Below are positions 1-41,725 of a DNA stretch of 64,000 bases, in pieces. Under the pieces are notes generated by a model. It was not told where the DNA came from and did no database searches. It was given only the letters and a program-made list of their open reading frames with translations. Source of the stretch: an uncultured Gemmatimonadota bacterium (GTDB lineage: Bacteria; JAAXHH01); NCBI GenBank assembly GCA_951812955.1, contig OX638340.1, positions 2,304,001-2,368,000 on the forward strand, in the 5' to 3' direction. The translations under genes were made by a program, and so were the position numbers. Position 1 is the stretch's first letter. Every line of letters begins with the position of its first letter.

Positions 1-126
1 GCTTCCAGGGGAGTCCGCTGGCCGGTTTCAGCGACTGTATCCGTTGCGGAGGATTGGGCCTGTAGGCGACCCTGCATGAGTAAAACGAGCAGCACCGCTA
101 CCAGAAGAACAGGGTATCTGGTCATG
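1..126 (-). CDS. Partial CDS: N-terminal ~42 aa (signal-peptide-like MTRYPVLLVAVLL...) of a small secreted protein that continues beyond the window start
   Basis: Reverse-strand ATG at 124-126. It is a near-identical copy of the N-terminus of the chimeric ORF at 4935..5057. The N-terminus is hydrophobic. Confidence 0.35.
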
Positions 127-237
127 CCAAACCAACTTGTAGGGGGAAATGACGAAAAGAGATGGAACCTGCTTTAACAGATCCAGGTAATGCCTGCAAC
201 CTACCCTTATTCGCGGCCACAGTCAAACAAAAGCGGC

Positions 238-2610
238 CTAATCTCGCCGCAGGGTGTCCGCCGGGTTGAGCATGGCGCTTCGGAAGGTATGCACGCTCAC
301 GGTGAGCAGGGCGGTGGCCAGGACAACCAGTCCCGCCGCGACGAAAGGCGCAGCACCGATCTCCGTCCGGTAGGCGAAGTCCGCCAGCCACTCGTTCATG
401 AGCCACCAGGCGGCCGGCCAGGCGAGGACGTTGCCGATCACCACGAGGACGACGAACTGCCTCGACAGCAGGCCGACTATATCTGAGACCGCGGCGCCCA
501 TCACCTTGCGGATGCCGACTTCCCGCGTGCGGCGCGCGATGTCCAGCGACACGAGTCCATATACACCCAGGCAGGCGATCAGCAGGGCGAATACCGCGGA
601 ATAGGTGAAAATGCGCGCAAGGTTGGCTTCACCCTCGTAGAATCGGGCGATGTCGTCATCAAGGAAGGAATACTCGAAAAGCGATTCCGGGGCGATCTCC
701 ATCCATGCCGCTCTCAACAGATCCAACGTGGCAGGCAGGTCCCGCCCGCTGACGCGTACCAGGAGGAAATTAACACCACCCTGGGTTTCCTCCCCGAAGG
801 AAGCGGGATTCATCGTCAGGATTACCGGCTCTATTTCTTGATGCATCGACTGGTAGTGGTAGTCCTCCAACACGCCGATGACCGTATATCCGTGGGGCAG
901 GGTCCGTCCGAGGGGGTCGTCCCATTCCATCACCCTGGCCGCGGCTTGGTTGATTATACATGACCCGGATTCGTCGTTGCCGAACTCCCGGGAAAAATCT
1001 CGTCCTGAGACCAGGTTCAGCTCTAGCGCCTTCACGTAATCGTAATCCACCGTGAACATATATGCTTCAAGCTTGTTCCCGTCCTTATCTGTATAGGCGG
1101 ACTGACCCAGGCCCCGACCGAAGGTGTTGGAAGCTCCCGTCACCAGGATTACGTTCTCATACGAGTTTATCCTGGATTTATAGACGTCCGCGGAGTTGGA
1201 ATTGGGCCCCATGTGGATGACGATGACGTTTTCCTTGTTGTATCCCAGATCTGTGTTCATGACGAAGTCCAACTGTCGGGTCATGACGAGTATGGAAACA
1301 ACGAGTAAGGCAGACAGGCCGAACTGGACGACCATCAGGCCGCGGATAACCAGGTTTGGGCTCCCGATCCGAACCTGATGTCTGAATACGGCAACGGGAT
1401 TGAAACGGGAGAGGATCAGGGCGGGATAGCTCCCGGACGCCAGGGCAACCAGGCCAGTCAACACTAGTAGCGCGGCGATCGTAGAGCCGTTGGAGAGATA
1501 ATCTAGGACGTATGAGCTTCCCGCCAGCGTGTTGAATACAGGAAGAAACAGGTGGGCCAGGATAACGCCTAAGATGAGGGCGAAGCAACTCAACACCGCG
1601 GTCTCACCCAGGAACTGTTTCATGATCTGGGTTTTCTGCGCACCGAACACCTTCCGCAGTCCAACCTCCCTGGCGCGCGAAGACGATCGGCAGAAGGCCA
1701 GGTTCATGAAATTCACGCAGGCGATGAAAAGAACGAAAAGCGCCGTGCAAATCAGTATGTAAGACCTGTTGGGATCGCTCGTGGTACCCTGGCCAAACCT
1801 CACACCCTGAGCAAGATACATGTCCGTTAAAGGCTGCAATTCCAGGTATGGCGATCCCATCTGTGAAAAATGAGTCTCGACAAAACCCGGCAACTGGTTT
1901 TCAAGCATGTCTGCCATTTCCGGATCCGACAGCTCGACGTAGGTTGAGGAGACACTGTAGTTCCAATTGCCGATCGCCTGATTCGTCCAGTTGTCGATAG
2001 CAAACATTTTGTCGAAGGGGATCAGGAAATCGAACCGTATGCTGGAATTAACCGGAGTGTTCTCTGCTACCCCGGCCACCAAAAACGGTTCACCTCGTAT
2101 CGTGAGTTGCCTGCCCAGGGGGCTTCCCGTCCCAAAATACTTCTCGGCGGCGGACTGGCTGATCACCACCGAGTTCAGTTCGTTCAGGACCGTCCCGGGA
2201 TCACCTTCGATCAATGGGAAGGAGAACACGCTGAATATCGATGGATCGCTATACAGAACGTGTTCTTCCCGGAACACATCATTACCAACACGGACTTCCG
2301 CCCCTCCGGTGGTTCGTATTCGCACGGTCTGTTCGACGCCGGGATACTGTTCCTTAAAGGCAGCGGCAAGTGGAAGAGGGGTAATCCCACTGGTATATAA
2401 GTTATCCTCGAAACCTGATCCACCGACGTTGACCCGGTAGATCCGGTCCGCCTTCTCGTGAAAGGCGTCGTAGGTCCACTCCTGGCGCACGAAGAGAAAT
2501 ACGAGGAGGCTGCAGGCGATGCCGGTGGACAGGCCCAGCGTGTTGATGAAGAAGTAGCCCTTGTTGCCGAACAGGTGCCGAAACGCGATGACAAGGTGGT
2601 TTTTCAGCAT
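238..2610 (-). CDS. ABC transporter permease, FtsX/MacB-like with duplicated FtsX domains (790 aa)
   Basis: N-terminus MLKNHLVIAFRHLFGNKGYFFINTLGLSTGIAC... is typical of MacB/FtsX permeases. A large periplasmic domain lies between TM helices. Two FtsX-type C-terminal TM bundles are present (...IARRTREVGIRKVMGA...). Confidence 0.85.
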   Translation of the reverse strand: MLKNHLVIAFRHLFGNKGYFFINTLGLSTGIACSLLVFLFVRQEWTYDAFHEKADRIYRVNVGGSGFEDNLYTSGITPLPLAAAFKEQYPGVEQTVRIRTTGGAEVRVGNDVFREEHVLYSDPSIFSVFSFPLIEGDPGTVLNELNSVVISQSAAEKYFGTGSPLGRQLTIRGEPFLVAGVAENTPVNSSIRFDFLIPFDKMFAIDNWTNQAIGNWNYSVSSTYVELSDPEMADMLENQLPGFVETHFSQMGSPYLELQPLTDMYLAQGVRFGQGTTSDPNRSYILICTALFVLFIACVNFMNLAFCRSSSRAREVGLRKVFGAQKTQIMKQFLGETAVLSCFALILGVILAHLFLPVFNTLAGSSYVLDYLSNGSTIAALLVLTGLVALASGSYPALILSRFNPVAVFRHQVRIGSPNLVIRGLMVVQFGLSALLVVSILVMTRQLDFVMNTDLGYNKENVIVIHMGPNSNSADVYKSRINSYENVILVTGASNTFGRGLGQSAYTDKDGNKLEAYMFTVDYDYVKALELNLVSGRDFSREFGNDESGSCIINQAAARVMEWDDPLGRTLPHGYTVIGVLEDYHYQSMHQEIEPVILTMNPASFGEETQGGVNFLLVRVSGRDLPATLDLLRAAWMEIAPESLFEYSFLDDDIARFYEGEANLARIFTYSAVFALLIACLGVYGLVSLDIARRTREVGIRKVMGAAVSDIVGLLSRQFVVLVVIGNVLAWPAAWWLMNEWLADFAYRTEIGAAPFVAAGLVVLATALLTVSVHTFRSAMLNPADTLRRD

Positions 2611-2779
2611 GATCGTTTTGCCTCCTGTCGCTTACGAGCTGTAAGCCGGAAAACGTTCCTGAGGAAACACGATCTTGGAATGGCAAAGGGGATCTACGGT
2701 TTCGACCCGTCGATCCCCTGAAAAGTTGCATGTTGGTAACTATTGCGATGCCGGAACTTACGTAGTGCATTCCCGACTG

Positions 2780-4381
2780 TCAGTCAACGACAAACGTGTT
2801 TTCACTACGGCGAAAACTCCTATCATCGCCAAACGAAACATCATAAACCAGTCTATACTCACCGGCGACTTCCGGATCGTATGGGCAAGCGTCGAATTCC
2901 ACCCGTGTGGCCTCGATGTCTTCCCATGTACTGCCCATATCGTCGCTTCGCTGCCATACGGAGTAATGGACCGTCATGGGGATACCTAACGGCTGAGTTG
3001 GGTAGTTGTTTAGTTCAGCACGAAAGAGTGAACTTGCACAGTATTCTATAGTTATAGGAGTATATCCTGGTCCCGTGAATATCAACTTACCGGGCTCGAC
3101 CTTCCAACCTTCCCACGGGACATAGACTATCTCGTCGACTGGCTCGTCGACGCCTTCGCCGCCATCCCCGCCATCCCCGCCTTCACCACCTTCCCCTTCA
3201 GTCGGAACCATGACCGTGATACTCACCATGGCCGACACGTCGCCGGACGCGGCCGTGACTACGGCCATGCCGTTGCCCACCGCTTCTACCAATCCATCCT
3301 CGTCCACGGTGATCACGTTTTCGTCACCGCTCGTCCACGTGACGGCCGGTTCGGCAATGGCATTGTCGTTCCCGTCGCTGACGGAAACCATGAGTTGCAG
3401 GGTCTGTTCGATCTCGGTCAGCGTGGTGGCATCGGGTGCGACCTCGATGCTGATGCCGGCCGGAACCTGGGCGACGGTGATCGACGCAGTCCCCATAGCG
3501 TCTCCGGCCTGTGCCGTGATCTCCGCCATGCCGTTGTCCACCGCGGTCACAAGCCCGTTCTCGTCCACGGTGGCCACGGCGTCATCGGCGCTTGACCAGG
3601 TCACCATCACGTCCTCCATCGCGTTTTCGTGCTGGTCCAGCACGACGGCCGCGAGTTCCACGGTGTCGCCGATCGCTTCCAGCGTGTGCGCAGCGGGCTC
3701 GATCGTCAGGCTCGTCGGCACGGATACGGATACCGTGATGGACGCACTGGCGGACAGGCTGCCGGATGTGGCCGTGATCTCAGCCATCCCGTTACTCACC
3801 GCCGTTACAAGGCCCGCCCCGCTCACGGTCGCCACGGCGTCGTCGCCGCTCGACCAGGTGATGGACTGGCCGGACATGATGTTGTTCCGCTGATCCCGCA
3901 CCGTAGCCGACAACTGTACCGTTTCCCCGATCGCCTTCAGCGTATGGGACGTCGGTGCGACCGTGATCCGGGTCGGCACCGGCTCGGCCACCGTGATGTT
4001 CGCAGTGCCCGTCGCGTTGCCGGACTGCGCCCTTATTTGCGCGGCGCCGTTGGCCACGGCCGTCACCAGGCCATTTCCGCTGACAGTCGCCACCGCGGTA
4101 TTGCTGCTCGACCAAGTCACCGCCTGGCCGGTCATCGGATTGTTGTTCTGGTCCCTCACCATGGCCATCAGTTGCACGGTCGCGCCAATCGTCGCCAGCG
4201 TGTGCGAAGACGGCGTGACAGAAATGCTCGTCGCAACGGGCGCAGGCGGTGGAGCAGGCGGGGTCGGTGTGGACGGCTCGGGACTCGTCGGGCTGCTGTC
4301 CCCGCCACCGCATCCCGCCAGAAAAACCAGGTACAAGGATGCCGTGATCTTGGCGAACACGCGACTGTATGGACCAAACAC
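2780..4381 (-). CDS. Surface lipoprotein with 4 bacterial Ig-like (Big-2) repeats and a distinct C-terminal domain (533 aa)
   Basis: Lipobox LVFLAGC is followed by a Pro/Thr-rich linker. There are four ~85-aa repeats of the type VTPSSHTLATIGATVQL...VTWSS...ATVSGNGLVTAV.NG.A.I.A. A Gly/Glu-rich linker follows, then a ~120-aa C-terminal domain. Confidence 0.8.
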   Translation of the reverse strand: MFGPYSRVFAKITASLYLVFLAGCGGGDSSPTSPEPSTPTPPAPPPAPVATSISVTPSSHTLATIGATVQLMAMVRDQNNNPMTGQAVTWSSSNTAVATVSGNGLVTAVANGAAQIRAQSGNATGTANITVAEPVPTRITVAPTSHTLKAIGETVQLSATVRDQRNNIMSGQSITWSSGDDAVATVSGAGLVTAVSNGMAEITATSGSLSASASITVSVSVPTSLTIEPAAHTLEAIGDTVELAAVVLDQHENAMEDVMVTWSSADDAVATVDENGLVTAVDNGMAEITAQAGDAMGTASITVAQVPAGISIEVAPDATTLTEIEQTLQLMVSVSDGNDNAIAEPAVTWTSGDENVITVDEDGLVEAVGNGMAVVTAASGDVSAMVSITVMVPTEGEGGEGGDGGDGGEGVDEPVDEIVYVPWEGWKVEPGKLIFTGPGYTPITIEYCASSLFRAELNNYPTQPLGIPMTVHYSVWQRSDDMGSTWEDIEATRVEFDACPYDPEVAGEYRLVYDVSFGDDRSFRRSENTFVVD

Positions 4382-4463
4382 TGCTGTCTCCTTTCGGCTA
4401 ATTACTGAAAAGCGGTTCGTTGTAATCTACCGTTCTTGATCTCGATGAACAGATTATCTGACT

Positions 4464-5057
4464 TCATGCACGCAGGCCCTTCATACTCTCCCGGGCCGCT
4501 TCGAGGGTCCGGTCGATGTCTTCTTCGGTATGGGCCAGGGACACAAACCCCGTTTCAAGGCGCGAAGGCGCCAGGTAGACGCCCCGGTCCAGCATATTCC
4601 AGAAGTATCGCCCGTACGTATCCGCGTCTGACGTGGAAGCTGCATCGAAATTGTTGACGGTCTGATCTGTGAAGAAGGTACACATCATGGAGCCCACACG
4701 GGTCAGGCAGGCCGGGACGCCGGCCGCTTCCGCCGCGGCGCGAAGGCCGTCGCCGAGGCGGGCGGCCAGGGATTCCAGCCGGTCGTAGACCCCGGGTTCC
4801 TGAAGCTGCCGCACCGTTTCATATCCAGCGGTCATGGCAAGCGGATTGCCGGACAGCGTGCCGGCCTGGTAAACCTCACCGGCGGGCGCCACGGTTTCCA
4901 TGAACTTTTCCTGGTCGAATAGCGCACGTCCCGCTTCCAGGGGAGTCCGCTGGCCGGTTTCAGCGACTGTATCATCTGCGGTGGATTGGGCCTGGAGGCG
5001 ACCCTGCATGAGAAAAACGAGCAGGACCGCTACCAGAAGTACAGGGTATCTGGTCAT
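4464..5057 (-). pseudogene. Chimeric duplication-junction ORF: signal peptide of the small secreted protein fused in frame to the C-terminal 145 aa of glutamate-1-semialdehyde aminomutase (hemL fragment)
   Basis: Residues METVAPAGEVYQAGTLSGNPL...ESMKGLRA are identical to the C-terminus of hemL at 9855..11144. The N-terminal 50 aa matches the ORF at 1..126. Similarity to unit 2 stops abruptly at ~4903. Confidence 0.6.
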
Positions 5058-5169
5058 GGCAAACCAACTCGTAGGGGGAAATGACGGAAAGAAATGGAAC
5101 CTGCTTTAACATATGCAGGTAATGCCTGCAACCTACCCTTATTCGCGGCCTCAGTCAAACAAATGCGGC

Positions 5170-7541
5170 CTACTCGCTCCGCAGGGTGTCCGCCGGGTTG
5201 AGCATAGCGCTTCGGAAAGTATGCACGCTCACGGTGAGCAGGGCGGTGGCCAGGACAACTAGTCCCGCCGCGACGAAAGGCGCAGCACCGATCTCCGTCC
5301 GGTAGGCGAAGTCCGCCAGCCACTCGTTCATGAGCCACCAGGCGGCCGGCCAGGCCAGGACGTTGCCGATCACCACGAGGACGACGAACTGCCTCGACAG
5401 CAGGCCGACTATATCTGAGACCGCGGCGCCCATCACCTTGCGGATGCCGACTTCCCGCGTGCGGCGCGCGATGTCCAGCGACACGAGTCCATATACGCCG
5501 AGGCAGGCGATCAGCAGGGCGAATACCGCGGAATAGGTGAAAATCAGCGCCAGGTTGTTCTCATCCTGGTAGAACCGTTCTATATCGTCTTCCATGAAGA
5601 AATACTCGTAGGGCGTCTCAGGCGCTGTCCCCTTCCACGCGTCCTCGAGCAGGGAAAGCGTGGTTGGCAGATCCCTGCCGCTGACCCGGACCAGGAGGAA
5701 GCCGTAACTGACCGAAGTGTTACCCATGGATGTGGGATTGAGGGAGAGTATAATCGGATCGATCTCCTGGTGCAGCGACTGGAAATGGAAGTCCTTGACT
5801 ACGCCGATTACCGTATACCCATGGGGCAGTTTGCGCCCGATCGGATCTTCCCATTCCAGCTTCTTTGCCGCGGCCTCGTTGATGATGCACGATTGGAACT
5901 CGTCGTTTACGAATTCGCTGGAAAAATCACGGCCACGGACGAGGTTCAGTTCAAGCGTCTCCAGGTAATCGCGGTCCACGGTCGCCATGAACGCTTCCAG
6001 CTTGTTTCCGTCCGGTCGGTGTAGGCAACCTGGGGCAAGAAATGCCCCTGACCAAAGGTGCTGGAAGTGCCGGAAACCAGGAGTATGTCTTCGTACGGTA
6101 TCACTTTGCTGCGAAAGATCTCCAGGTCGTTTGAATTGAAGGGGGCCTGGATGACTACCACGTTGTGCGGGTTGAACCCCAAATCCCCCGTCCGCACAAA
6201 GTCCAGCTGCCGGGTCATGATGAGAATTGAAATGACGAGCAACGCGGACAACCCGAACTGCACGACCATCAAGCCGCGCACGAAGAGATTCGGCCCTCCG
6301 ATCTGAACCTGTTGCCGGAAGATGGTGACGGGGTTGTAGTGTGAGAGCACCAGGGAAGGATAACTGCCGGAAACCAGGGCGACCAGCACGGTCAAACCCG
6401 TCAGCGCGGCCAGCGTGGATCCGTTCGTCAGGTAGTCCAGCACGAGGGACTTTCCCGCCAGCATATTGAAAACCGGAAGGAACAGGTGGGCCAGGGCCAC
6501 GCTCAGCACCAGGGCGAAGCAGCACAGCGCCGCGGTTTCGCCCAAGTGCTGTCCCATGATCTGGGTTCGGCGCGCGCCGTAAACTTTCCTGACACCGACC
6601 TCTTTCACACGCGAAGACGAACGGCAGACGGCCAGGTTCATGAAGTTGACGCAGGCGATGAATAGTACGAGCAGCGCCGTGCAAATCAGGATGTAGGACC
6701 GGTTGGGATCGCTGGTGGGACCCAGCCCGAATTTGACTTCCTGATCCAGGTAGATATCGGTGATGGGTTGCAGGATCAGATAGGGCGACGAGTAGGCCGG
6801 GAAATGGGTTTCGACGAATTCCGGCAGTTGACTGAGGAGCGATTCTACTCGATCCGGATCCCCGAGTTCGATGAAAGTGGCCGTGGACGAATAGTTCCAC
6901 TTTCCGATGGCATTCGATATCCAGGGGTTTATTTCCGGCGCCTTGTCAAAGGGTATGAGCAGGTCGAACCGAATACTGGAGTTATCCGGTCCGTTCTCCG
7001 CGACGCCGGTTACGGTCAGCGGAATGCCCTGTACCAGGAGCGTCCTGCCCGTCGGAGACTCCTGGCCGAAGTACTTCGCCGCGGCGGATTTGCTGACGAC
7101 CACTGAATTCGCCTCGCCGAGGGCCGTACCGGGATCGCCTTCGATCATCGTGAAGGAGAACATCTCGAAGAAGGACGGATCGCAGAAAAGGGCGTTCTCC
7201 TTGCGGAACGTATCTTCTCCGATGCGAATATCGGATGGATATTCCGTTATGCGCACGGTCCGGACCACGTCGGGATATTGCTGCTCCAGGGTAGCCGCGA
7301 GCGGGAGGGGAGTTCTCGCGCTTATGAACGGGTTGTCGTCGAAATCCACTCCACCGGCTGCGACCTGGTAGATCCGGTCCGATTTCTCGTGGAAGGCGTC
7401 GTAGGTCCACTCGTGGCGGACGAAGAGAAAGATCAGGAGGCAGCACGCGATACCGGTCGACAGGCCAAAAGTATTGATGAAGAAATAACCCTTGTTGGCG
7501 AACAGGTACCGCAACGCGATGACGAGGTTGTTTTTCACCAT
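5170..7541 (-). pseudogene. Second copy of the FtsX/MacB-like ABC permease, apparently frameshifted (two overlapping ORFs 5946..7541 and 5170..6900)
   Basis: The N-terminal 531-aa ORF and the C-terminal 576-aa ORF together align to the 790-aa permease at 238..2610. The reading frame is lost around 6010-6030, where ...AYTDR(T)ETSW in this copy replaces AYTDKDGNKLE in copy 1, consistent with a 1-bp indel. This could be a genuine pseudogene or a sequencing error. Confidence 0.55.
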
Positions 7542-7708
7542 GATCGTATTGCCTCCTGTCGCTTACGCATGCAAGCAGGAAAACGCACCTGGGGAAAGAC
7601 GATCCTGCAATGGCAAAGGGGATCTACGGTTTCGACCCGTCGATCCCCTTAAAGGTTGCATGTTGGTAACTATTGCGATTGGGAACTTACGTTGTGCATT
7701 CCTGACTG

Positions 7709-9772
7709 TCAGGGGATGACAAACGTATTCTCACTACGGCGAAAACTCCTATCATCGTCAAGCGAAATATCACCAACCAGTCTATACTCACCGGCGACTT
7801 CCGGATTGTATGGGCAAGCGTCGAATTCCACCCGTGTGTCCTCGATGTCTTCCCATGTACTGCCCATATCGTCGCTTCGCTGCCATACGGAGTAATGGAC
7901 CGTAATGGTGACACCTAACGGAGTTGGGCGGTTGTTTAGTTCTCCACCTAAGAGTGAACTTGCGCAGTTTACTATAGGTATTGTAGCAAGTCCTGGGACC
8001 GTAAAAACCAACCGACCGGGCTCGACCCGCACACCTTCCCACGGGACGTAGGTGACTTCATCCACCGTAATGGTCACCGTGATGCTCACCATGGCCGACA
8101 CGTCGCCGGACGCGGCCGTAACTTCGGTCATGCCGTTGCCCACAGCTTCTACCAACCCATCCTCGTCCACGGTGACCACGTTCTCGTCACCGCTCGTCCA
8201 CGTGACGGCCGGTTCGGCAATGGCATTGTCGTTCCCGTCGCTGACGGAAACCATGAGTTGCAGGGTCTGTTCGATCTCGGTCAGCGTGGTGGCATCGGGT
8301 GCGACCTCGATGCTGATGCCGGCCGGAACCTGGGCGACGGTGATCGACGCAGTCCCCATAGCGCCTCCGGCCTGGGCCGTGATCTCCGCCATGCCGTTGT
8401 CCACCGCGGTGACCACGCCGTTCTCGTCCACGGTGGCCACGGCGTCGTCGCCGCTCGACCAGGTCACCATCACGTCCTCCATCGCGTTTTCGTGCTGGTC
8501 CAGTACGACGGCCGCGAGTTCCACGGTGTCGCCGATCGCTCCCAGCGTGTGCGCGGCTGGCTCGATCGTGATGCTCGTTGCCACGGGCTCGGATATCACC
8601 ATGACCGTGATACTCACCATGGCCGATACGTCGCCGGATGCGGCCGTAACTGCGGCCATGCCGTTCCCCACCGCTTCTACCAAACCATCCTCGTCCACGG
8701 TGGCCACGTTTTCGTCACCGCTCGTCCACGTGACGGCCGGTTCGGCAATGGCATTGTCGTTCCCGTCGCTGACGGAAACCATGAGTTGCAGGGTCTGTTC
8801 GATCTCGGTCAGCGTGGTGGCATCGGGTGCGACCTCGATGCTGATGCCGGCCGGAACCTGGGCGACGGTGATCGACGCAGTCCCCATAGCGTCTCCGGCC
8901 TGTGCCGTGATCTCCGCCATGCCGTTGTCCACCGCGGTCACAAGCCCGTTCTCGTCCACGGTGGCCACGGCGTCATCGGCGCTTGACCAGGTCACCATCA
9001 CGTCCTCCATCGCGTTTTCGTGCTGGTCCAGCACGACGGCCGCGAGTTCCACGGTGTCGCCGATCGCTTCCAGCGTGTGCGCAGCGGGCTCGATCGTCAG
9101 GCTCGTCGGCACGGATACGGATACCGTGATGGACGCACTGGCGGACAGGCTGCCGGATGTGGCCGTGATCTCAGCCATCCCGTTACTCACCGCCGTTACA
9201 AGGCCCGCCCCGCTCACGGTCGCCACGGCGTCGTCGCCGCTCGACCAGGTGATGGACTGGCCGGACATGATGTTGTTCCGCTGATCCCGCACCGTAGCCG
9301 ACAACTGTACCGTTTCCCCGATCGCCTTCAGCGTATGGGACGTCGGTGCGACCGTGATCCGGGTCGGCACCGGCTCGGCCACCGTGATGTTCGCAGTGCC
9401 CGTCGCGTTGCCGGACTGCGCCCTTATTTGCGCGGCGCCGTTGGCCACGGCCGTCACCAGGCCATTTCCGCTGACAGTCGCCACCGCGGTATTGCTGCTC
9501 GACCAAGTCACCGCCTGGCCGGTCATCGGATTGTTGTTCTGGTCCCTCACCATGGCCATCAGTTGCACGGTCGCGCCAATCGTCGCCAGCGTGTGCGAAG
9601 ACGGCGTGACAGAAATGCTCGTCGCAACGGGCGCAGGCGGTGGAGCAGGCGGGGTCGGTGTGGACGGCTCGGGACTCGTCGGGCTGCTGTCCCCGCCACC
9701 GCATCCCGCCAGAAAAACCAGGTACAAGGATGCCGTGATCTTGGCGAACACGCGACTGTATGGACCAAACAC
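7709..9772 (-). CDS. Surface lipoprotein with 6 Big-2 repeats (paralogue of 2780..4381; 687 aa)
   Basis: The N-terminal ~380 aa are identical to copy 1. There are two extra Big-2 repeats (an internal tandem duplication of repeats 3-4). The C-terminal domain is diverged from copy 1 and the Gly/Glu linker is absent. Confidence 0.8.
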   Translation of the reverse strand: MFGPYSRVFAKITASLYLVFLAGCGGGDSSPTSPEPSTPTPPAPPPAPVATSISVTPSSHTLATIGATVQLMAMVRDQNNNPMTGQAVTWSSSNTAVATVSGNGLVTAVANGAAQIRAQSGNATGTANITVAEPVPTRITVAPTSHTLKAIGETVQLSATVRDQRNNIMSGQSITWSSGDDAVATVSGAGLVTAVSNGMAEITATSGSLSASASITVSVSVPTSLTIEPAAHTLEAIGDTVELAAVVLDQHENAMEDVMVTWSSADDAVATVDENGLVTAVDNGMAEITAQAGDAMGTASITVAQVPAGISIEVAPDATTLTEIEQTLQLMVSVSDGNDNAIAEPAVTWTSGDENVATVDEDGLVEAVGNGMAAVTAASGDVSAMVSITVMVISEPVATSITIEPAAHTLGAIGDTVELAAVVLDQHENAMEDVMVTWSSGDDAVATVDENGVVTAVDNGMAEITAQAGGAMGTASITVAQVPAGISIEVAPDATTLTEIEQTLQLMVSVSDGNDNAIAEPAVTWTSGDENVVTVDEDGLVEAVGNGMTEVTAASGDVSAMVSITVTITVDEVTYVPWEGVRVEPGRLVFTVPGLATIPIVNCASSLLGGELNNRPTPLGVTITVHYSVWQRSDDMGSTWEDIEDTRVEFDACPYNPEVAGEYRLVGDISLDDDRSFRRSENTFVIP

Positions 9773-9854
9773 TGCTGTCTCCTTTCGGCTAATTACTGAA
9801 AAGCGGTTCGTTGTAATCTACCGTTCTTGATCTCGATGAACAGATTATCTGACT

Positions 9855-11144
9855 TCATGCACGCAGGCCCTTCATACTCTCCCGGGCCGCTTCGAGGGTC
9901 CGGTCGATGTCTTCTTCGGTATGGGCCAGGGACACAAACCCCGTTTCAAGGCGCGAAGGCGCCAGGTAGACGCCCCGGTCCAGCATATTCCAGAAGTATC
10001 GCCCGTACGTATCCGCGTCTGACGTGGAAGCTGCATCGAAATTGTTGACGGTCTGATCTGTGAAGAAGGTACACATCATGGAGCCCACACGGGTCAGGCA
10101 GGCCGGGACGCCGGCCGCTTCCGCCGCGGCGCGAAGGCCGTCGCCGAGGCGGGCGGCCAGGGATTCCAGCCGGTCGTAGACCCCGGGTTCCTGAAGCTGC
10201 CGCACCGTTTCATATCCAGCGGTCATGGCAAGCGGATTGCCGGACAGCGTGCCGGCCTGGTAAACCTCACCGGCGGGCGCCACGGTTTCCATGATTTCCC
10301 TGCGACCGCCATAGGCCCCCACGGGAAGTCCTCCCCCGATGATCTTGCCCAGGCAGGTCATGTCGGCCGAGATGCCGAATCGTTCCTGCGCTCCGCCGAA
10401 TGCGATCCTGAATCCCGTGATGACCTCGTCAAAAATCAGAATGATCCCCCGCTTCTCCGTCTCTTCCCGAATGGTTTCGAGAAAGCCTTCGGCCGGAGGG
10501 ATCATGCCCATGTTGCCGGCGACCGGCTCTACGATCACGCAGGCGACGTCGCCGCCCCGCTCCGCCAGGGTGCGCCGGACGGCCTCGACGTCGTTGTAGG
10601 GTAGATTGATGGTCATCTTCGCCAGGTCCGCAGGCACGCCGGGACTGTCGGGGATGCCGAATGTCGCGGCGCCGGAACCGGCCTGGATGAGAAAGCTGTC
10701 TCCGTGGCCGTGGTATCCCGCCTCGAATTTGACCGCCAGGTCGCGCCCCGTGTATCCGCGGGCGACGCGCAGGGCGCTCATGGTCGCTTCCGTGCCGGAG
10801 TTGACCATGCGTATCAGGTCGATGGACGGGAAGGCGGTCCTGACCAGTTCCGCCAGCCTGATCTCGGCTTCGGTGGGCGTGCCGAAACTCGTACCCCGTT
10901 CACAGGCCTTCTTCAGGGCCTCGACCACGGCGGGATGGCCGTGGCCCAGGATCAGCGGTCCCCAGGATCCCAGGTAATCGATGTACTCGTTGCCGTCCAC
11001 GTCGTAGACCCTGGAACCCGCGCCCCGGTCCATGAAGACGGGGCTTCCTCCAACCCGCCCGAAATTCCGCACGGGGCTGTTCACCCCGCCGGGCATGGAT
11101 CGCTGGGCCTGGTCGAAGAGGGTACTGGATCGGGAACGGTTCAT
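9855..11144 (-). CDS. hemL: Glutamate-1-semialdehyde 2,1-aminomutase
   Basis: Full-length class III PLP aminotransferase of 429 aa. Motifs are typical of HemL (e.g. YNDVEAV, GGLPVGAYGGRREIM). Confidence 0.95.
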   Translation of the reverse strand: MNRSRSSTLFDQAQRSMPGGVNSPVRNFGRVGGSPVFMDRGAGSRVYDVDGNEYIDYLGSWGPLILGHGHPAVVEALKKACERGTSFGTPTEAEIRLAELVRTAFPSIDLIRMVNSGTEATMSALRVARGYTGRDLAVKFEAGYHGHGDSFLIQAGSGAATFGIPDSPGVPADLAKMTINLPYNDVEAVRRTLAERGGDVACVIVEPVAGNMGMIPPAEGFLETIREETEKRGIILIFDEVITGFRIAFGGAQERFGISADMTCLGKIIGGGLPVGAYGGRREIMETVAPAGEVYQAGTLSGNPLAMTAGYETVRQLQEPGVYDRLESLAARLGDGLRAAAEAAGVPACLTRVGSMMCTFFTDQTVNNFDAASTSDADTYGRYFWNMLDRGVYLAPSRLETGFVSLAHTEEDIDRTLEAARESMKGLRA

Positions 11145-11159
11145 ACGATTTATTCCATT

Positions 11160-12128
11160 TCAGAGTCTTCGGGCGACATCCATCGCGAAATAAGTGAGGA
11201 TCATGTCGGCGCCGGCGCGTTTTATGGCGGTCAGCGACTCCAGGACGATCCGTTCTTCGTCGATCCAGCCTTTCTGTCCTGCCGCCTTGATCATGGCGTA
11301 TTCCCCGCTCACGTTGTAGGCGGCCACCGGCACTTCAAAGGCCGATTTGACTCGTTGTATCACGTCGAGATAGGCCAGGGCCGGCTTGACCATGACGATA
11401 TCGGCGCCTTCCTCAAGGTCGAGTTCTACTTCCCGCAGCGCTTCGGTGGCGTTCGCCGGGTCCATCTGGTAGGAACGGCGGTCGCCGAATTGCGGGACCG
11501 AGTCCGCGGCGTCGCGAAAGGGCCCGTAATACGCCGAAGCGTACTTGGCGGAATAGGCCAGGATCGGGACATGCCCGAGGTGTTCGCCGTCCAGACCCTC
11601 CCGGATCGCACGCACGCGGCCGTCCATCATGTCCGACGGCGCAACCAGGTCCGCGCCGGCGCGGGCCTGCGAGAGCGCGGTCCTGACGAGCAGGCGAAGC
11701 GTGGCATCGTTCTCCACGTCGCCGTCCCGGATCACGCCGCAGTGCCCGTGATCGGTGTACTCGCAGAGGCATACGTCGCCGATGACGGTCAGTTCCGGTA
11801 CCGCTTGCTTGATCGCGCCAATGGCCCGTTGCACGATGCCGTCGTCCGCATAGGCTCCGGAACCGTAGGCGTCCTTGCTCTCCGGGATGCCGAAGAGCAT
11901 GACGGCCGGGATACCCAGGTCCACGACTTCACGGCAGGCCTCCACGGCCTGGTCAACCGACTGCCGGTCCACGCCGGGCATCGAATCTACCGGGGAACGT
12001 ACGCCTTCGCCCGGGCAGATGAACATGGGATAGACCAGGTCGTCCACGGAGAGCCGGGTCTCGCCGATCATGGCGCGCAGGCTTCCGGTCCGCCGCAGGC
12101 GCCGTAGCCGATGTACGGGAAATGCCAT
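11160..12128 (-). CDS. hemB: Porphobilinogen synthase (delta-aminolevulinate dehydratase), Zn-type
   Basis: Collinear match to E. coli HemB along the full length. It includes the Cys-rich zinc site [14 protein letters not shown] and the active-site region [10 protein letters not shown]. Confidence 0.95.
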
Positions 12129-12154: not shown

Positions 12155-12772
12155 TCAGTACCCCCCGCAGTTGGCGCAACCGCCGCTGTCAAATCCGTTC
12201 AAAGCACTGCAGCGTTCACACTGGAACAGGAGATGCCCGGCGTCTATGGACCGTGACGCCATCAAATTCAGCGCCGTCGCCCGGAGTTTCGAGGGCACGA
12301 TGATCCTCGCCGACTCGTCCGAACATGGACCGGTAAGCAGGCCGGAGTCCTGCTTGGTCGAGAACACCCGGCTGTCCACACCCTGCTGTGCGAGGAAACG
12401 CTGGTAGCTCAGCGCTTCACGGTCTTCGGCCCGATAGAGGATTTCCTCCTTCGGAAACTCTTCTACCAATCCATGTCTTTCACAGAAATACCGGCCATGA
12501 CGGCGTATCCCGCAGTCCTCGCACACGTGCCGTCCGCAGACGACGCACAGGCCGTGCGCAGGTCCGGCCGGATGGTTCAGGCATCGAAGATCGTCGATGA
12601 ATACTGTGCCGCAGACCGGGCAGGACCCCAGGTCGCCCGGGATCTCCTCCTTGCACTCGTCGCAAACCCACGTCGACACCTCATTCAGGGCGTTAACCAG
12701 GGTGGACGCGCAGATAGGGCATTTTTCCTCGCCGCGGGCGTATTCACATTCGCATTCCGGGCAGAAAGGCAT
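12155..12772 (-). CDS. Cysteine-rich zinc-ribbon protein (about 8 CxxC pairs), unknown function, embedded in the haem operon
   Basis: 205 aa with repeated CxxC pairs (CPEC, CPIC, CDEC, CPVC, CVVC, CEDC, CERC, CANC). No similarity to known Hem enzymes was recognised. Confidence 0.55.
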   Translation of the reverse strand: MPFCPECECEYARGEEKCPICASTLVNALNEVSTWVCDECKEEIPGDLGSCPVCGTVFIDDLRCLNHPAGPAHGLCVVCGRHVCEDCGIRRHGRYFCERHGLVEEFPKEEILYRAEDREALSYQRFLAQQGVDSRVFSTKQDSGLLTGPCSDESARIIVPSKLRATALNLMASRSIDAGHLLFQCERCSALNGFDSGGCANCGGY

Positions 12773-41576: not shown

Positions 41577-41725
41577 TATGGCCGACGACTAGTACAGCCG
41601 GTCGATCACGACGTCCGCTCCGGAGTATGGCCGACGACTAGTACAGCCGGTCGATCACGACGTCCGCTCCGGAGTATGGCCGACGACTAGTACAGCCGGT
41701 CGATGACGACGTCCGCTCCGGATTC
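41577..41725. repeat. Three tandem 50-bp units, each encoding the last 11 codons plus stop (SGADVVIDRLY*) of the hypothetical secreted protein gene
   Basis: tatggccgacgactagtacagccggtcgatcacgacgtccgctccggag x2 nearly perfect. The third unit has c>g and is the true gene end. Confidence 0.85.

What the first reader, a model, noticed from the sequence alone, without database searches (positions are those of the whole stretch)
2780..9772. Paralogous Big-2 lipoproteins differ by an internal repeat-pair expansion and a swapped C-terminal domain
Copy 1 (533 aa) has four Big-2 repeats plus a GEGGEGGDGG linker. Copy 2 (687 aa) has six repeats. Repeats 5 and 6 are near-copies of repeats 3 and 4 (TSITIEPAAHTLGAIGDTVEL... 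/ ISIEVAPDATTLTEIEQTLQL...). The C-terminal ~120-aa domains are related but clearly diverged, whereas the N-terminal 380 aa are identical. The pattern of a conserved anchor and stalk with a variable tip suggests a variable adhesin or cell-surface ligand-binding family diversifying by recombination.
Basis: seen in the sequence. Interest (0 to 1): 0.6.

Follow-up and report, generated by a model that had tools for sequence, protein, structure and literature searches.

The report
Stacked alleles of variable Big_2 lipoprotein
Two versions of a highly variable, probably envelope- or surface-located lipoprotein gene sit side by side because a 5-kb block (gene plus neighbouring transporter) was duplicated in tandem; it resembles the Leptospira LigA/LigB pair and is a solid but not unprecedented example of a recombination-driven variable gene.

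Summary
Copy 1 (2780-4381, 533 aa) has 4 Big_2 domains and copy 2 (7709-9772, 687 aa) has 6. Repeats 5/6 are 92%/96% nt identical to repeats 3/4 of the same gene, against 60-68% for other repeat pairs. The C-terminal 118-aa domains are 76% identical.

The two genes are not simple paralogs. They lie in a tandem segmental duplication (unit A <1-4903, unit B 4904-10294). It also doubled a 790-aa ADOP-like FtsX/MacB permease, left a hemL 3' remnant, and made a chimeric 197-aa ORF. The same junction occurs in two other, 92-95% identical contigs, so it is real and inherited. At least 21 related genomes carry the locus once, with a 4-repeat, 6-repeat or LRR-bearing allele.

The identical N-terminus belongs to a 1,590-nt, 100% identical tract that includes the non-functional hemL remnant. 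That indicates gene conversion, not stalk conservation. The C-domain (dS 0.5-0.9) and the permease classes (dS about 1.1) are far older than the flanks (dS 0.13-0.26), so they are old allelic lineages exchanged by recombination.

The C-domain is a confident Ig-like beta-sandwich with no Pfam family and a hypervariable N-terminal half. Adhesin function and surface exposure remain inferred. The closest analogue is Leptospira LigA/LigB.

The parts
2780..4381 (-). Big_2 lipoprotein, copy 1 (533 aa): lipobox, Pro/Thr/Ser linker, 4 Big_2 domains, acidic Gly-rich linker (about 3146-3211), C-terminal Ig-like domain
   Evidence: ORF; Pfam; alignment
7709..9772 (-). Big_2 lipoprotein, copy 2 (687 aa): same leader, 6 Big_2 domains, no acidic linker, C-terminal Ig-like domain; identical to database protein P0001 on a 3.81-Mb contig
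8075..8602 (-). 528-nt in-frame repeat-pair expansion (R5+R6), copies of R3+R4
   Evidence: R5~R3 92% nt, R6~R4 96% nt against 60-68% for other pairs; R5 is 97-98% identical to R3/R5 of the orthologous 6-repeat allele in L016
7712..8074 (-). C-terminal domain of copy 2 (121 aa), Ig-like beta-sandwich; its hypervariable half is residues 1-57 (about 7904-8074)
   Evidence: AlphaFold2 pLDDT 91.4; no Pfam match; entropy 1.84 vs 0.95 bits
2783..3145 (-). C-terminal domain of copy 1 (121 aa), 76% identical to that of copy 2; 24 of 32 differences lie in the first 57 residues
238..2610 (-). Permease 1: intact 790-aa duplicated FtsX/MacB_PCD permease (ADOP-like), common allele class
   Evidence: Pfam; NCBIfam; 93-95% nt identity to L017-upstream, L018, L019 and L020
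5170..7541 (-). Permease 2: divergent allele (about 70-74% nt identity to all others), broken by a 1-nt deletion near 6014; its last ~380 nt are 97% identical to permease 1
   Evidence: two overlapping ORFs; alignment; deletion context GAC-CGG, not a homopolymer
4464..5057 (-). Chimeric junction ORF (197 aa): 4904-5057 is the 5' start (signal peptide) of the downstream TPR gene, and 4464-4903 is the hemL 3' remnant
   Evidence: breakpoint 4903|4904 with 2-nt TC microhomology
3314..4903 (.). 1,590-nt tract that is 100% identical to 8705-10294 (hemL remnant, intergenic region, codons 1-356 of the lipoprotein gene); all 8 mismatches of the wider 99.5% tract lie at 3236-3313
8705..10294 (.). Partner of the identical tract in unit B, including the 3' 440 nt of the functional hemL
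1..4903 (-). Duplication unit A (runs off the window start by about 29 nt): TPR gene start, permease 1, copy 1, hemL remnant
   Evidence: blastn; repeat families
4904..10294 (-). Duplication unit B: truncated TPR start, permease 2, copy 2, 3' part of the real hemL
9855..11144 (-). Intact hemL (glutamate-1-semialdehyde aminomutase), the conserved upstream anchor of the locus
   Evidence: 91-97% aa identity in all relatives

Best explanation
The two genes are two alleles of one hypervariable lipoprotein gene, stacked head-to-tail by a tandem segmental duplication. SHOWN: an illegitimate recombination event joined the 5' start of the downstream TPR gene to the middle of hemL, at a 2-nt microhomology. 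This duplicated a block made of the hemL 3' part, the Big_2 lipoprotein gene and the duplicated FtsX/MacB permease gene. The structure is inherited, because the same junction occurs in three distinct sequences. SHOWN: the locus then diversified in three ways. (1) Unequal recombination between the 258-267-nt Big_2-coding repeats adds or removes the R3+R4 pair, giving 4, 5, 6 or at least 7 repeats in different genomes. (2) The distal part (C-terminal Ig-like domain plus most of the permease) is replaced by old, divergent alleles circulating among sister lineages; their dS is 3-6 times the flank dS and their dN/dS is below 1. (3) Gene conversion between the stacked units made 1,590 nt identical across the hemL remnant, the upstream intergenic (presumed promoter) region and codons 1-356. 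INFERRED: the protein is anchored by its N-terminal lipid. It holds the variable half of a terminal Ig-like domain (or, in some alleles, an LRR module) at the end of a Big_2 stalk of adjustable length, where it binds an external partner. Long-lived alleles are maintained by balancing or frequency-dependent selection from the host or from phage. The relatives are sponge symbionts. Permease 2 appears to be decaying through a frameshift.
For: Tandem units and mosaic identity. Junction anatomy and microhomology. Same junction in L017 (ERZ25071132) and L024 (ERZ25072076), with 92-95% overall identity and different cassette content. Both copies on one 3,813,436-nt contig. Single-copy synteny hemB-hemL-Big2-permease(-TPR-M29) in all related genomes whose contig covers the site. 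Flanks 94-95.5% nt, L016 collinear with unit B and L018/19/20 with unit A. Repeat-number polymorphism with extras always R3/R4-like. 100% identical 1,590-nt tract including the non-coding remnant. dS: stalk 0.14-0.22 and hemL 0.17-0.26, against C-domain 0.54-0.95 and permease classes about 1.1, with dN/dS 0.15-0.5. Independent assortment of Big2 alleles and permease classes. C-domain is a confident beta-sandwich with a variable N-terminal half and occurs in other multidomain extracellular-type proteins. Two relatives belong to MAG name series (APA_bin, SB06xx_bin) that come from sponge microbiome studies. Lig precedent.
Against: Surface exposure, ligand and expression are untested. The lipobox says only that the protein is lipid-anchored, and it could face the periplasm. 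Conserved linkage to a MacB-type permease, which is also hypervariable in its periplasmic domains, hints at a periplasmic partnership instead. Balancing selection is inferred from deep dS alone; import from more distant lineages without selection would look similar. The direction and timing of the conversion tract could not be determined (one search was uninformative). The sequencing technology of the source assembly is inferred from contig names only. The one dN/dS value above 1 (2.8, copy 1 vs L017) rests on very few substitutions and was not tested for significance.
Confidence: 0.75

Rival explanations
1. Classical paralogs: a local gene duplication followed by divergence of the tip, with purifying selection keeping the anchor and stalk identical.
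For: Two complete ORFs with identical N-termini and diverged C-termini. The stalk does show purifying selection between genomes (dN/dS about 0.2-0.3).
Against: The identity is 100% at the nucleotide level over 1,590 nt, including synonymous sites, the intergenic region and a functionless hemL remnant; selection on protein cannot do that. C-domain dS between the copies (0.20) and between alleles (0.5-0.9) exceeds stalk dS (0.02 between the copies). Each copy has its own counterpart allele in single-copy sister genomes.
Confidence: 0.08
2. Assembly artefact: two co-occurring strain variants of a single-copy locus were concatenated by the metagenome assembler, and/or the repeat number was mis-assembled.
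For: The source is a MAG. Strain mixtures exist, since several 92-95% identical relatives were recovered. The 1.59-kb identical tract is a classic place for mis-joins.
Against: The junction joins unrelated sequences (TPR gene start and mid-hemL) with only 2 nt of perfect microhomology, too little for a k-mer graph join. The identical junction occurs in two further, clearly different contigs from other ENA assemblies. Six-repeat alleles recur in independent assemblies, including chromosome-scale ones.
Confidence: 0.03
3. A periplasmic module rather than a surface adhesin: the lipoprotein is a partner or substrate of the adjacent ADOP-like MacB-type permease (as MacA is for MacB, EnvC for FtsX, and lipoproteins for LolCDE). 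The variability would then reflect a toxin, bacteriocin or phage interaction at the envelope.
For: Lipoprotein-permease adjacency is conserved in every related genome examined, across 45-100% lipoprotein identity. The least conserved parts of the permease are those coding its two periplasmic domains. Both genes carry deep allelic classes.
Against: Lipoprotein alleles and permease classes assort independently. No ATPase gene is adjacent. Alleles of 987-1092 aa with LRR modules are long for a periplasmic protein. The 170-nt gap between the genes shows no significant signal either way.
Confidence: 0.15

Closest known systems
Leptospira LigA / LigB (leptospiral immunoglobulin-like proteins)
   Same: Lig proteins are built of tandem Big_2 (PF02368) domains; that they are lipoproteins is from my own knowledge. 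The two genes in one genome are nearly identical from upstream of the start codon (-266) through several Ig domains (+1890) and then diverge. ligA derives from ligB by duplication. The lig genes show horizontal flow and recombination. LigB has an extra C-terminal extension (PMC7821625). Here the identity runs from -522 to +1068 (100%) or +1175 (99.5%), then the sequences diverge, with a terminal non-Big_2 domain.
   Different: No close sequence relationship beyond the Big_2 fold. There are 4-6 domains here against 12-13 in Lig. Here the copies are adjacent in a tandem block that also duplicates a permease. The C-terminal domain is a different, unannotated Ig-like module. The extra repeats here are near-identical true repeats, whereas Lig domains are only moderately similar to each other. 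The host context is a sponge symbiont rather than a mammalian pathogen. Binding functions are demonstrated for Lig and unknown here.
Intimin / invasin (inverse autotransporter adhesins)
   Same: A Big_1/Big_2 stalk carries a terminal binding domain. From my own knowledge, intimin alleles share a conserved N-terminal part and differ by recombination in the distal receptor-binding part.
   Different: No beta-barrel or LysM anchor is detected (Pfam). The anchor here is a lipobox, and the tip is an Ig-like sandwich rather than a C-type lectin-like domain.
Replacement-type hypervariable loci for exposed structures (O-antigen or capsule loci, pilin or receptor genes under frequency-dependent selection)
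   Same: A conserved chromosomal site between conserved flanks, occupied by deeply divergent alternative alleles exchanged by homologous recombination in the flanks (from my own knowledge of the concept; the pattern is shown).
   Different: Here the replaced unit is only about 3 kb (protein tip plus permease). In this lineage two alleles are retained in tandem rather than one replacing the other.
ADOP family duplicated permease (TIGR03434) / MacB-type (type VII) ABC permeases
   Same: End-to-end match to the ADOP model (5-803 of 803), with two MacB_PCD and two FtsX modules.
   Different: The score of 293 bits is far below the curated 622-bit cutoff. No partner ATPase gene is adjacent. The function of ADOP proteins is itself unknown.

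Membership tests
Big_2 domain proteins (Pfam PF02368) | HMM match above the gathering score | tested here: met
   157.3 bits (4 stretches) and 213.3 bits (6 stretches) against a 22.8-bit cutoff
Bacterial lipoproteins (signal peptidase II substrates) | N-terminal basic region, hydrophobic region and lipobox [LVI][ASTVI][GAS]C | tested here: met
   MFGPYSRVFAKITASLYLVFLAG|C read directly from the sequence; conserved in the 20 ortholog ORFs examined; AGGAG lies 7-8 nt before the GTG start. Actual lipidation is not testable with these tools.
Lig-like proteins (Leptospira LigA/B/C) | Orthology or close sequence relationship to lig genes; 12-13 Big_2 domains; demonstrated host-matrix binding | not tested
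   No direct sequence comparison with Lig proteins was run. The top 120 homologs that carry a source name are from Gemmatimonadota, Zixibacteria or JGI 'YjdB' records, and none is from Leptospira. Treated as an analogue (works like), not as a member.
Lig-like proteins (Leptospira LigA/B/C) | Two genes sharing a near-identical 5' region that begins upstream of the start codon, then diverging | tested here: met
   Tract 3314-4903 = 8705-10294 is 100% identical; the Lig description is in PMC7821625
Intimin/invasin inverse autotransporters | N-terminal outer-membrane beta-barrel (and LysM) anchor | tested here: not met
   Pfam finds only Big_2, Big-like, Big_1, fn3_6 and MG2. The N-terminus is a 24-aa lipoprotein signal followed directly by a Pro-rich linker.
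Intimin/invasin inverse autotransporters | C-type lectin-like terminal domain | tested here: not met
ADOP family duplicated permease (TIGR03434) | Score above the curated cutoff for the full-length model | tested here: not met
   293.1 bits against a 622.3-bit cutoff, although the alignment covers 5-803 of 803. Best described as an ADOP-like MacB-type duplicated permease.
BNR/Asp-box repeat proteins | S-x-D-x-G-x-T-W hairpin motif in a recognised BNR domain | tested here: inconclusive
   The motif SDDMGSTW is present and conserved, but Pfam gave no BNR hit for the C-domain. The multi-repeat relatives look like ~97-aa Ig-like repeats with KWQTSTDGGTTW, not propeller blades.
Diversity-generating retroelement targets | A template repeat near the variable region, plus a reverse transcriptase and adenine-specific changes | tested here: not met
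   No further copy of the C-domain region occurs in the window (profile scan; repeat scan of 1-12000). Variation includes many indels. A reverse transcriptase was not searched for explicitly.

The most novel reading that the evidence does not exclude
The Big_2 lipoprotein and the ADOP-like permease could form one envelope module that acts as a strain-identity determinant (host-recognition tag or phage receptor) in sponge symbionts, kept polymorphic by negative frequency-dependent selection. The tandem 'allele stack', with its 1.59-kb identical 5' tract, would then work as a cassette reservoir. Recombination across the tract could swap, delete or re-expand tips, giving a population-fed analogue of antigenic-variation systems, and would give the orphan ADOP permease family its first functional context.
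Probability: 0.12. Interest if true: 0.65.

Novelty: new member of a known kind. Interest (0 to 1): 0.4.

Why it matters
The work turns a vague 'variable adhesin' guess into a defined, testable locus. One conserved site next to the haem-biosynthesis genes carries a lipoprotein whose stalk length, tip domain and neighbouring permease all vary between lineages that are about 95% identical elsewhere. The relatives retrieved are uncultured bacteria, two of them from sponge-microbiome MAG series. Such loci are the natural candidates for host-symbiont recognition or phage-receptor variation, which are poorly understood in sponge microbiomes. The locus also defines an unannotated Ig-like terminal domain family (541 cluster representatives in 1.84 billion). 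It provides a non-pathogen parallel to Leptospira LigA/LigB, showing that this architecture and its gene-conversion dynamics are not peculiar to pathogens. Nothing here overturns current understanding.

Tried and rejected
(1) Direction of gene conversion from hemL divergence. In the window, the duplicated 3' part of hemL is 88.6-90.2% identical to four single-copy relatives, against 94-97% for the 5' part. Control pairs of other genomes show the same drop, so this gives no inference.

(2) Testing lipoprotein-permease linkage at other loci. The LRR-bearing and 654-aa homologs I looked up (P0014, P0022, P0075) proved to be orthologs at the same site, not paralogs elsewhere, so there was no independent test.

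(3) Exact-protein look-ups of copy 1, copy 2, P0001 and the chimeric ORF found nothing; the source contig is not in that index.

(4) Junction searches in the JGI metagenome collection, exact and wobble-degenerate, found nothing.

(5) The word-indexed search with the C-domain alone returned only 4 hits and was replaced by the exhaustive profile search.

(6) The afdb50 fold library was unavailable.

(7) The sigma-70 promoter and terminator scan gave no more sites than shuffled sequence, so operon structure is unresolved.

(8) BNR/Asp-box membership: the motif is present but no Pfam BNR hit was found.

(9) The three ARAGORN tRNA-Gly calls inside the repeats are rejected as false positives.

(10) Literature searches for a prior description of Ig-like or Big_2 proteins in sponge Gemmatimonadota found nothing specific.

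Full report
OBSERVATION. The two minus-strand ORFs 2780-4381 (533 aa, 'copy 1') and 7709-9772 (687 aa, 'copy 2') exist as described. Pfam Big_2 (PF02368) matches four stretches in copy 1 and six in copy 2, far above the gathering score. Both begin with a lipoprotein-type signal (…LVFLAG|C) followed by a Pro/Thr/Ser-rich linker. An AGGAG lies 7-8 nt before the GTG start.

The proteins are identical for the first 356 residues, and about 390 of the first 392 aligned residues match. Copy 2 carries an in-frame 528-nt insertion (8075-8602) encoding two more Big_2 domains. R5 is 92% nt / 91% aa identical to R3, and R6 is 96% nt / 97% aa identical to R4. All other repeat pairs are 60-68% nt / 45-65% aa identical. 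Only copy 1 has a roughly 22-aa Gly/Glu/Asp linker before the last domain. The final 118 residues are 76% identical.

blastn and the repeat finder show that window 1-4903 (unit A) is homologous to 4933-10294 (unit B), apart from the 528-nt expansion. In gene orientation each unit contains:
- the 3' 440 nt of hemL;
- an 82-nt intergenic region;
- the Big_2 lipoprotein gene;
- a 790-aa permease with two MacB_PCD and two FtsX modules (Pfam; full-length but sub-threshold ADOP match);
- the first ~150 nt of the next gene, a TPR protein in relatives.

At 4903|4904 the truncated TPR start is fused in frame to the hemL remnant, giving a chimeric 197-aa ORF (4464-5057). Comparing the junction with the intact parental sequences shows a 2-nt perfect microhomology (TC) inside a short patch of imperfect similarity: TPR …CAGGAAAAGTTC|GCGGAA, hemL …CAGGGAAATC|ATGGAA, junction …CAGGAAAAGTTC|ATGGAA. 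This is the signature of illegitimate recombination, and it is too short for a k-mer assembly mis-join.

IS IT REAL? Both lipoproteins are recorded on one 3,813,436-nt contig present in NCBI and ENA. Two further contigs from other ENA assemblies carry exactly the same junction sequence and the same chimeric ORF: L017 (ERZ25071132) and L024 (ERZ25072076). They are only 92-95% identical to the window and to each other. The duplication is therefore a real, inherited structure shared by at least three distinct strains.

Their contig names ('ctg…_5x_l', '…_75x_c') look like long-read metagenome assembler output, but that is my inference, not a tool result. The junction was not found in the JGI metagenome collection.

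THE LOCUS IN RELATIVES. Fifteen related genomes found by a genome scan, plus six more contigs found through exact-protein look-ups, carry the locus once. Wherever the contig reaches far enough, the order is hemB-hemL-Big2 lipoprotein-permease-TPR-M29 peptidase. The named records are Gemmatimonadota or 'Latescibacterota' MAGs. The bin-name series of two of them (APA_bin, SB06xx_bin) belong to sponge microbiome studies of A. aerophoba and I. ramosa.

Flanking DNA of the closest relatives is 94-95.5% identical to the window. L016 is collinear with unit B at that background level right through a 687-aa, 6-repeat allele. L018, L019 and L020 are collinear with unit A and carry 4-repeat alleles. So each 'paralog' corresponds to an allele that exists singly at this site in sister lineages. 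The window's lineage has stacked two alleles.

At the same site, other genomes carry alleles of 420-1190 aa with 3 to at least 7 Big_2 domains, some with an LRR module before the terminal domain. In every expanded allele the extra units are R3/R4-like at 81-100% nt identity. In L016, R3 and R5 are 100% identical. Repeat-pair gain is therefore recurrent and/or continually homogenised. The window's R5 is 97-98% identical to L016's R3/R5 but only 92% to its own R3, because its own R3 lies inside the tract shared with copy 1.

WHY THE N-TERMINI ARE IDENTICAL. The near-identical stretch is not confined to the coding 'anchor and stalk'. Positions 3314-4903 and 8705-10294 are 100% identical over 1,590 nt. 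This covers the functionless hemL remnant, the intergenic region and codons 1-356. All eight mismatches of the wider 99.5% tract cluster at its distal edge (3236-3313).

The same region differs by 5-10% between the window and the other tandem-bearing strains. Identity within the genome is therefore best explained by recent gene conversion or recombination between the stacked units, not by purifying selection. A second, shorter tract (97% identity) covers the last ~380 nt of the two permease genes. I tried to infer the direction of conversion from hemL divergence, but controls showed that hemL's 3' third is more variable in all genome pairs.

OLD ALLELES IN A YOUNG BACKGROUND. Nei-Gojobori estimates give the following.
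- Stalk: dS 0.14-0.22 between genomes, the same as flanking hemL (0.17-0.26), with dN/dS 0.2-0.3.
- C-terminal domain: dS 0.54-0.95 and dN 0.22-0.34 (dN/dS 0.3-0.5).
- Permeases: at least three classes. Class 1 comprises permease 1, L017-upstream, L018, L019 and L020, at 93-95% nt. Class 2 comprises L016 and L017-downstream. Class 3 is permease 2 alone, about 70-74% identical to everything.
- Between the two intact permease classes (1 vs 2): dS about 1.1 with dN/dS 0.18. Class 3 carries the frameshift and was not included in the estimate.

The distal lipoprotein domain and the permease are therefore much older than the genomes they sit in, and they evolve under constraint. This is the pattern expected for long-lived alternative alleles exchanged by recombination, through balancing selection or repeated import. 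Lipoprotein alleles and permease classes assort independently: copy-2-like with class 2 in L016 but with class 3 here, and copy-1-like with class 1 here but with class 2 in L017.

Permease 2 has a single 1-nt deletion near 6014, in a non-homopolymer context. It is probably a genuine pseudogene, although a sequencing error cannot be excluded.

An exhaustive profile search finds 541 cluster representatives (E<=1e-3) among 1.84 billion. In 92 of the 124 homologs retrieved by the two word-indexed searches, the domain sits at the extreme C-terminus. In more distant proteins it is combined with Big_2, Big_9, He_PIG, cadherin, LRR, NHL-propeller, CARDB or FGE-sulfatase modules, so it is a promiscuous module of extracellular-type multidomain proteins.

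The conserved core (…VWQRSDDMGSTW…C…AGEYRLVGD…SEN…) is shared with ~97-aa repeats of giant proteins (KWQTSTDGGTTW). It contains an Asp-box-like S-x-D-x-G-x-T-W motif. Recognition of that motif is from my own knowledge, and no BNR Pfam hit supports it.

Variability is concentrated in the first 57 residues. Their mean entropy is 1.84 bits against 0.95 bits for residues 58-121. They hold almost all indel columns, the largest after residue 40. They carry 24 of the 32 differences between copy 1 and copy 2. Two cysteines (C37, C87) are invariant or nearly so.

MECHANISM, WITH STATUS.
- Shown: tandem duplication by microhomology-mediated illegitimate recombination.
- Shown: repeat-pair expansion in register.
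- Shown: homogenisation of the 5' 1.59 kb.
- Shown: replacement-type allelic diversity of the tip and permease, with independent assortment.
- Inferred: the protein is lipid-anchored and presents a variable Ig-like (or LRR) tip on a stalk of adjustable length to an external partner, and selection from the host or from phage maintains the alleles.
- Not resolved: whether the protein faces outward or into the periplasm, and whether the conserved, equally polymorphic ADOP-like permease is a functional partner or a hitch-hiker (notebook, 'unexplained').

COMPARISON WITH KNOWN SYSTEMS. The closest analogue is Leptospira LigA/LigB. These are Big_2 proteins that are nearly identical from 266 nt upstream of the start codon to +1890 and then diverge. 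ligA derives from ligB by duplication, and the lig genes show horizontal flow and recombination (PMC7821625). That they are lipoproteins is from my own knowledge. The present case works like that pair, but I did not test and do not claim family membership.

It is not an intimin/invasin-type inverse autotransporter, because it has no beta-barrel and no lectin-like tip. The permease resembles the ADOP family end to end but fails the curated cutoff. No diversity-generating retroelement signature was seen: there is no template copy and the variation is rich in indels.

VERDICT. The feature is real and well explained as a Lig-like, allele-stacked hypervariable lipoprotein locus. It is a new member of a known kind, with an unannotated terminal domain and an intriguing, unexplained linkage to a polymorphic orphan permease. 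Interest is moderate (0.4).

Noticed in passing
window 4464-5057 (-): Chimeric 197-aa ORF created by the duplication junction: a 52-aa signal-peptide start from the downstream TPR gene fused in frame to the last 145 aa of hemL. The same ORF (197 and 195 aa) is called in L017 and L024.
   Followed up: yes
window about 6014, within 5170-7541 (-): A single 1-nt deletion (context GAC-CGG, not a homopolymer) splits permease 2 into two overlapping ORFs. It is probably a pseudogene, but a sequencing error is not excluded.
   Followed up: partly
window 238-2610 and 5170-7541; L016-L020: The ADOP-like permease next to the lipoprotein falls into at least 3 allelic classes. Between the two intact classes dS is about 1.1 and dN/dS 0.18. 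The lowest identity is in the stretches coding its two periplasmic domains. The classes assort independently of the lipoprotein alleles. Unexplained.
   Followed up: partly
window 3335-3427, 8198-8290, 8726-8818 (+): ARAGORN calls three 93-nt 'tRNA-Gly(ccc)' genes antisense inside Big_2 repeats R4/R6. Rfam finds no tRNA there, so they are almost certainly false positives generated by the repeat.
   Followed up: yes
L017 1-948; L024 2-964: In the other tandem-bearing strains the upstream slot holds a different architecture: Big_2 repeats, an LRR segment and a divergent C-domain (49% identical). LRR-bearing alleles of 987-1092 aa occupy the same site in L021 and L023.
   Followed up: partly
window 9855-10294 vs 10295-11144 (hemL): The 3' third of hemL is markedly more divergent than the 5' two-thirds in all genome pairs, not only in the window. 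This may be recombination spill-over from the adjacent hypervariable locus.
   Followed up: partly
window 12155-12772 (-): A Cys-rich 205-aa ORF lies between hemB and the uroporphyrinogen methyltransferase/synthase gene. A 205-206-aa gene occupies the same position in the relatives whose gene calls were listed (weak zinc-ribbon/DZR hits). Its function is unknown.
   Followed up: no
window 41577-41722: A 49-bp unit repeated 3 times in tandem with 98% matches.
   Followed up: no
window 233-250 (-) vs 5165-5182 (-): A GC-rich hairpin plus T-run lies directly after the permease 1 stop codon (terminator-like). Its counterpart in unit B has lost the stem complementarity.
   Followed up: no
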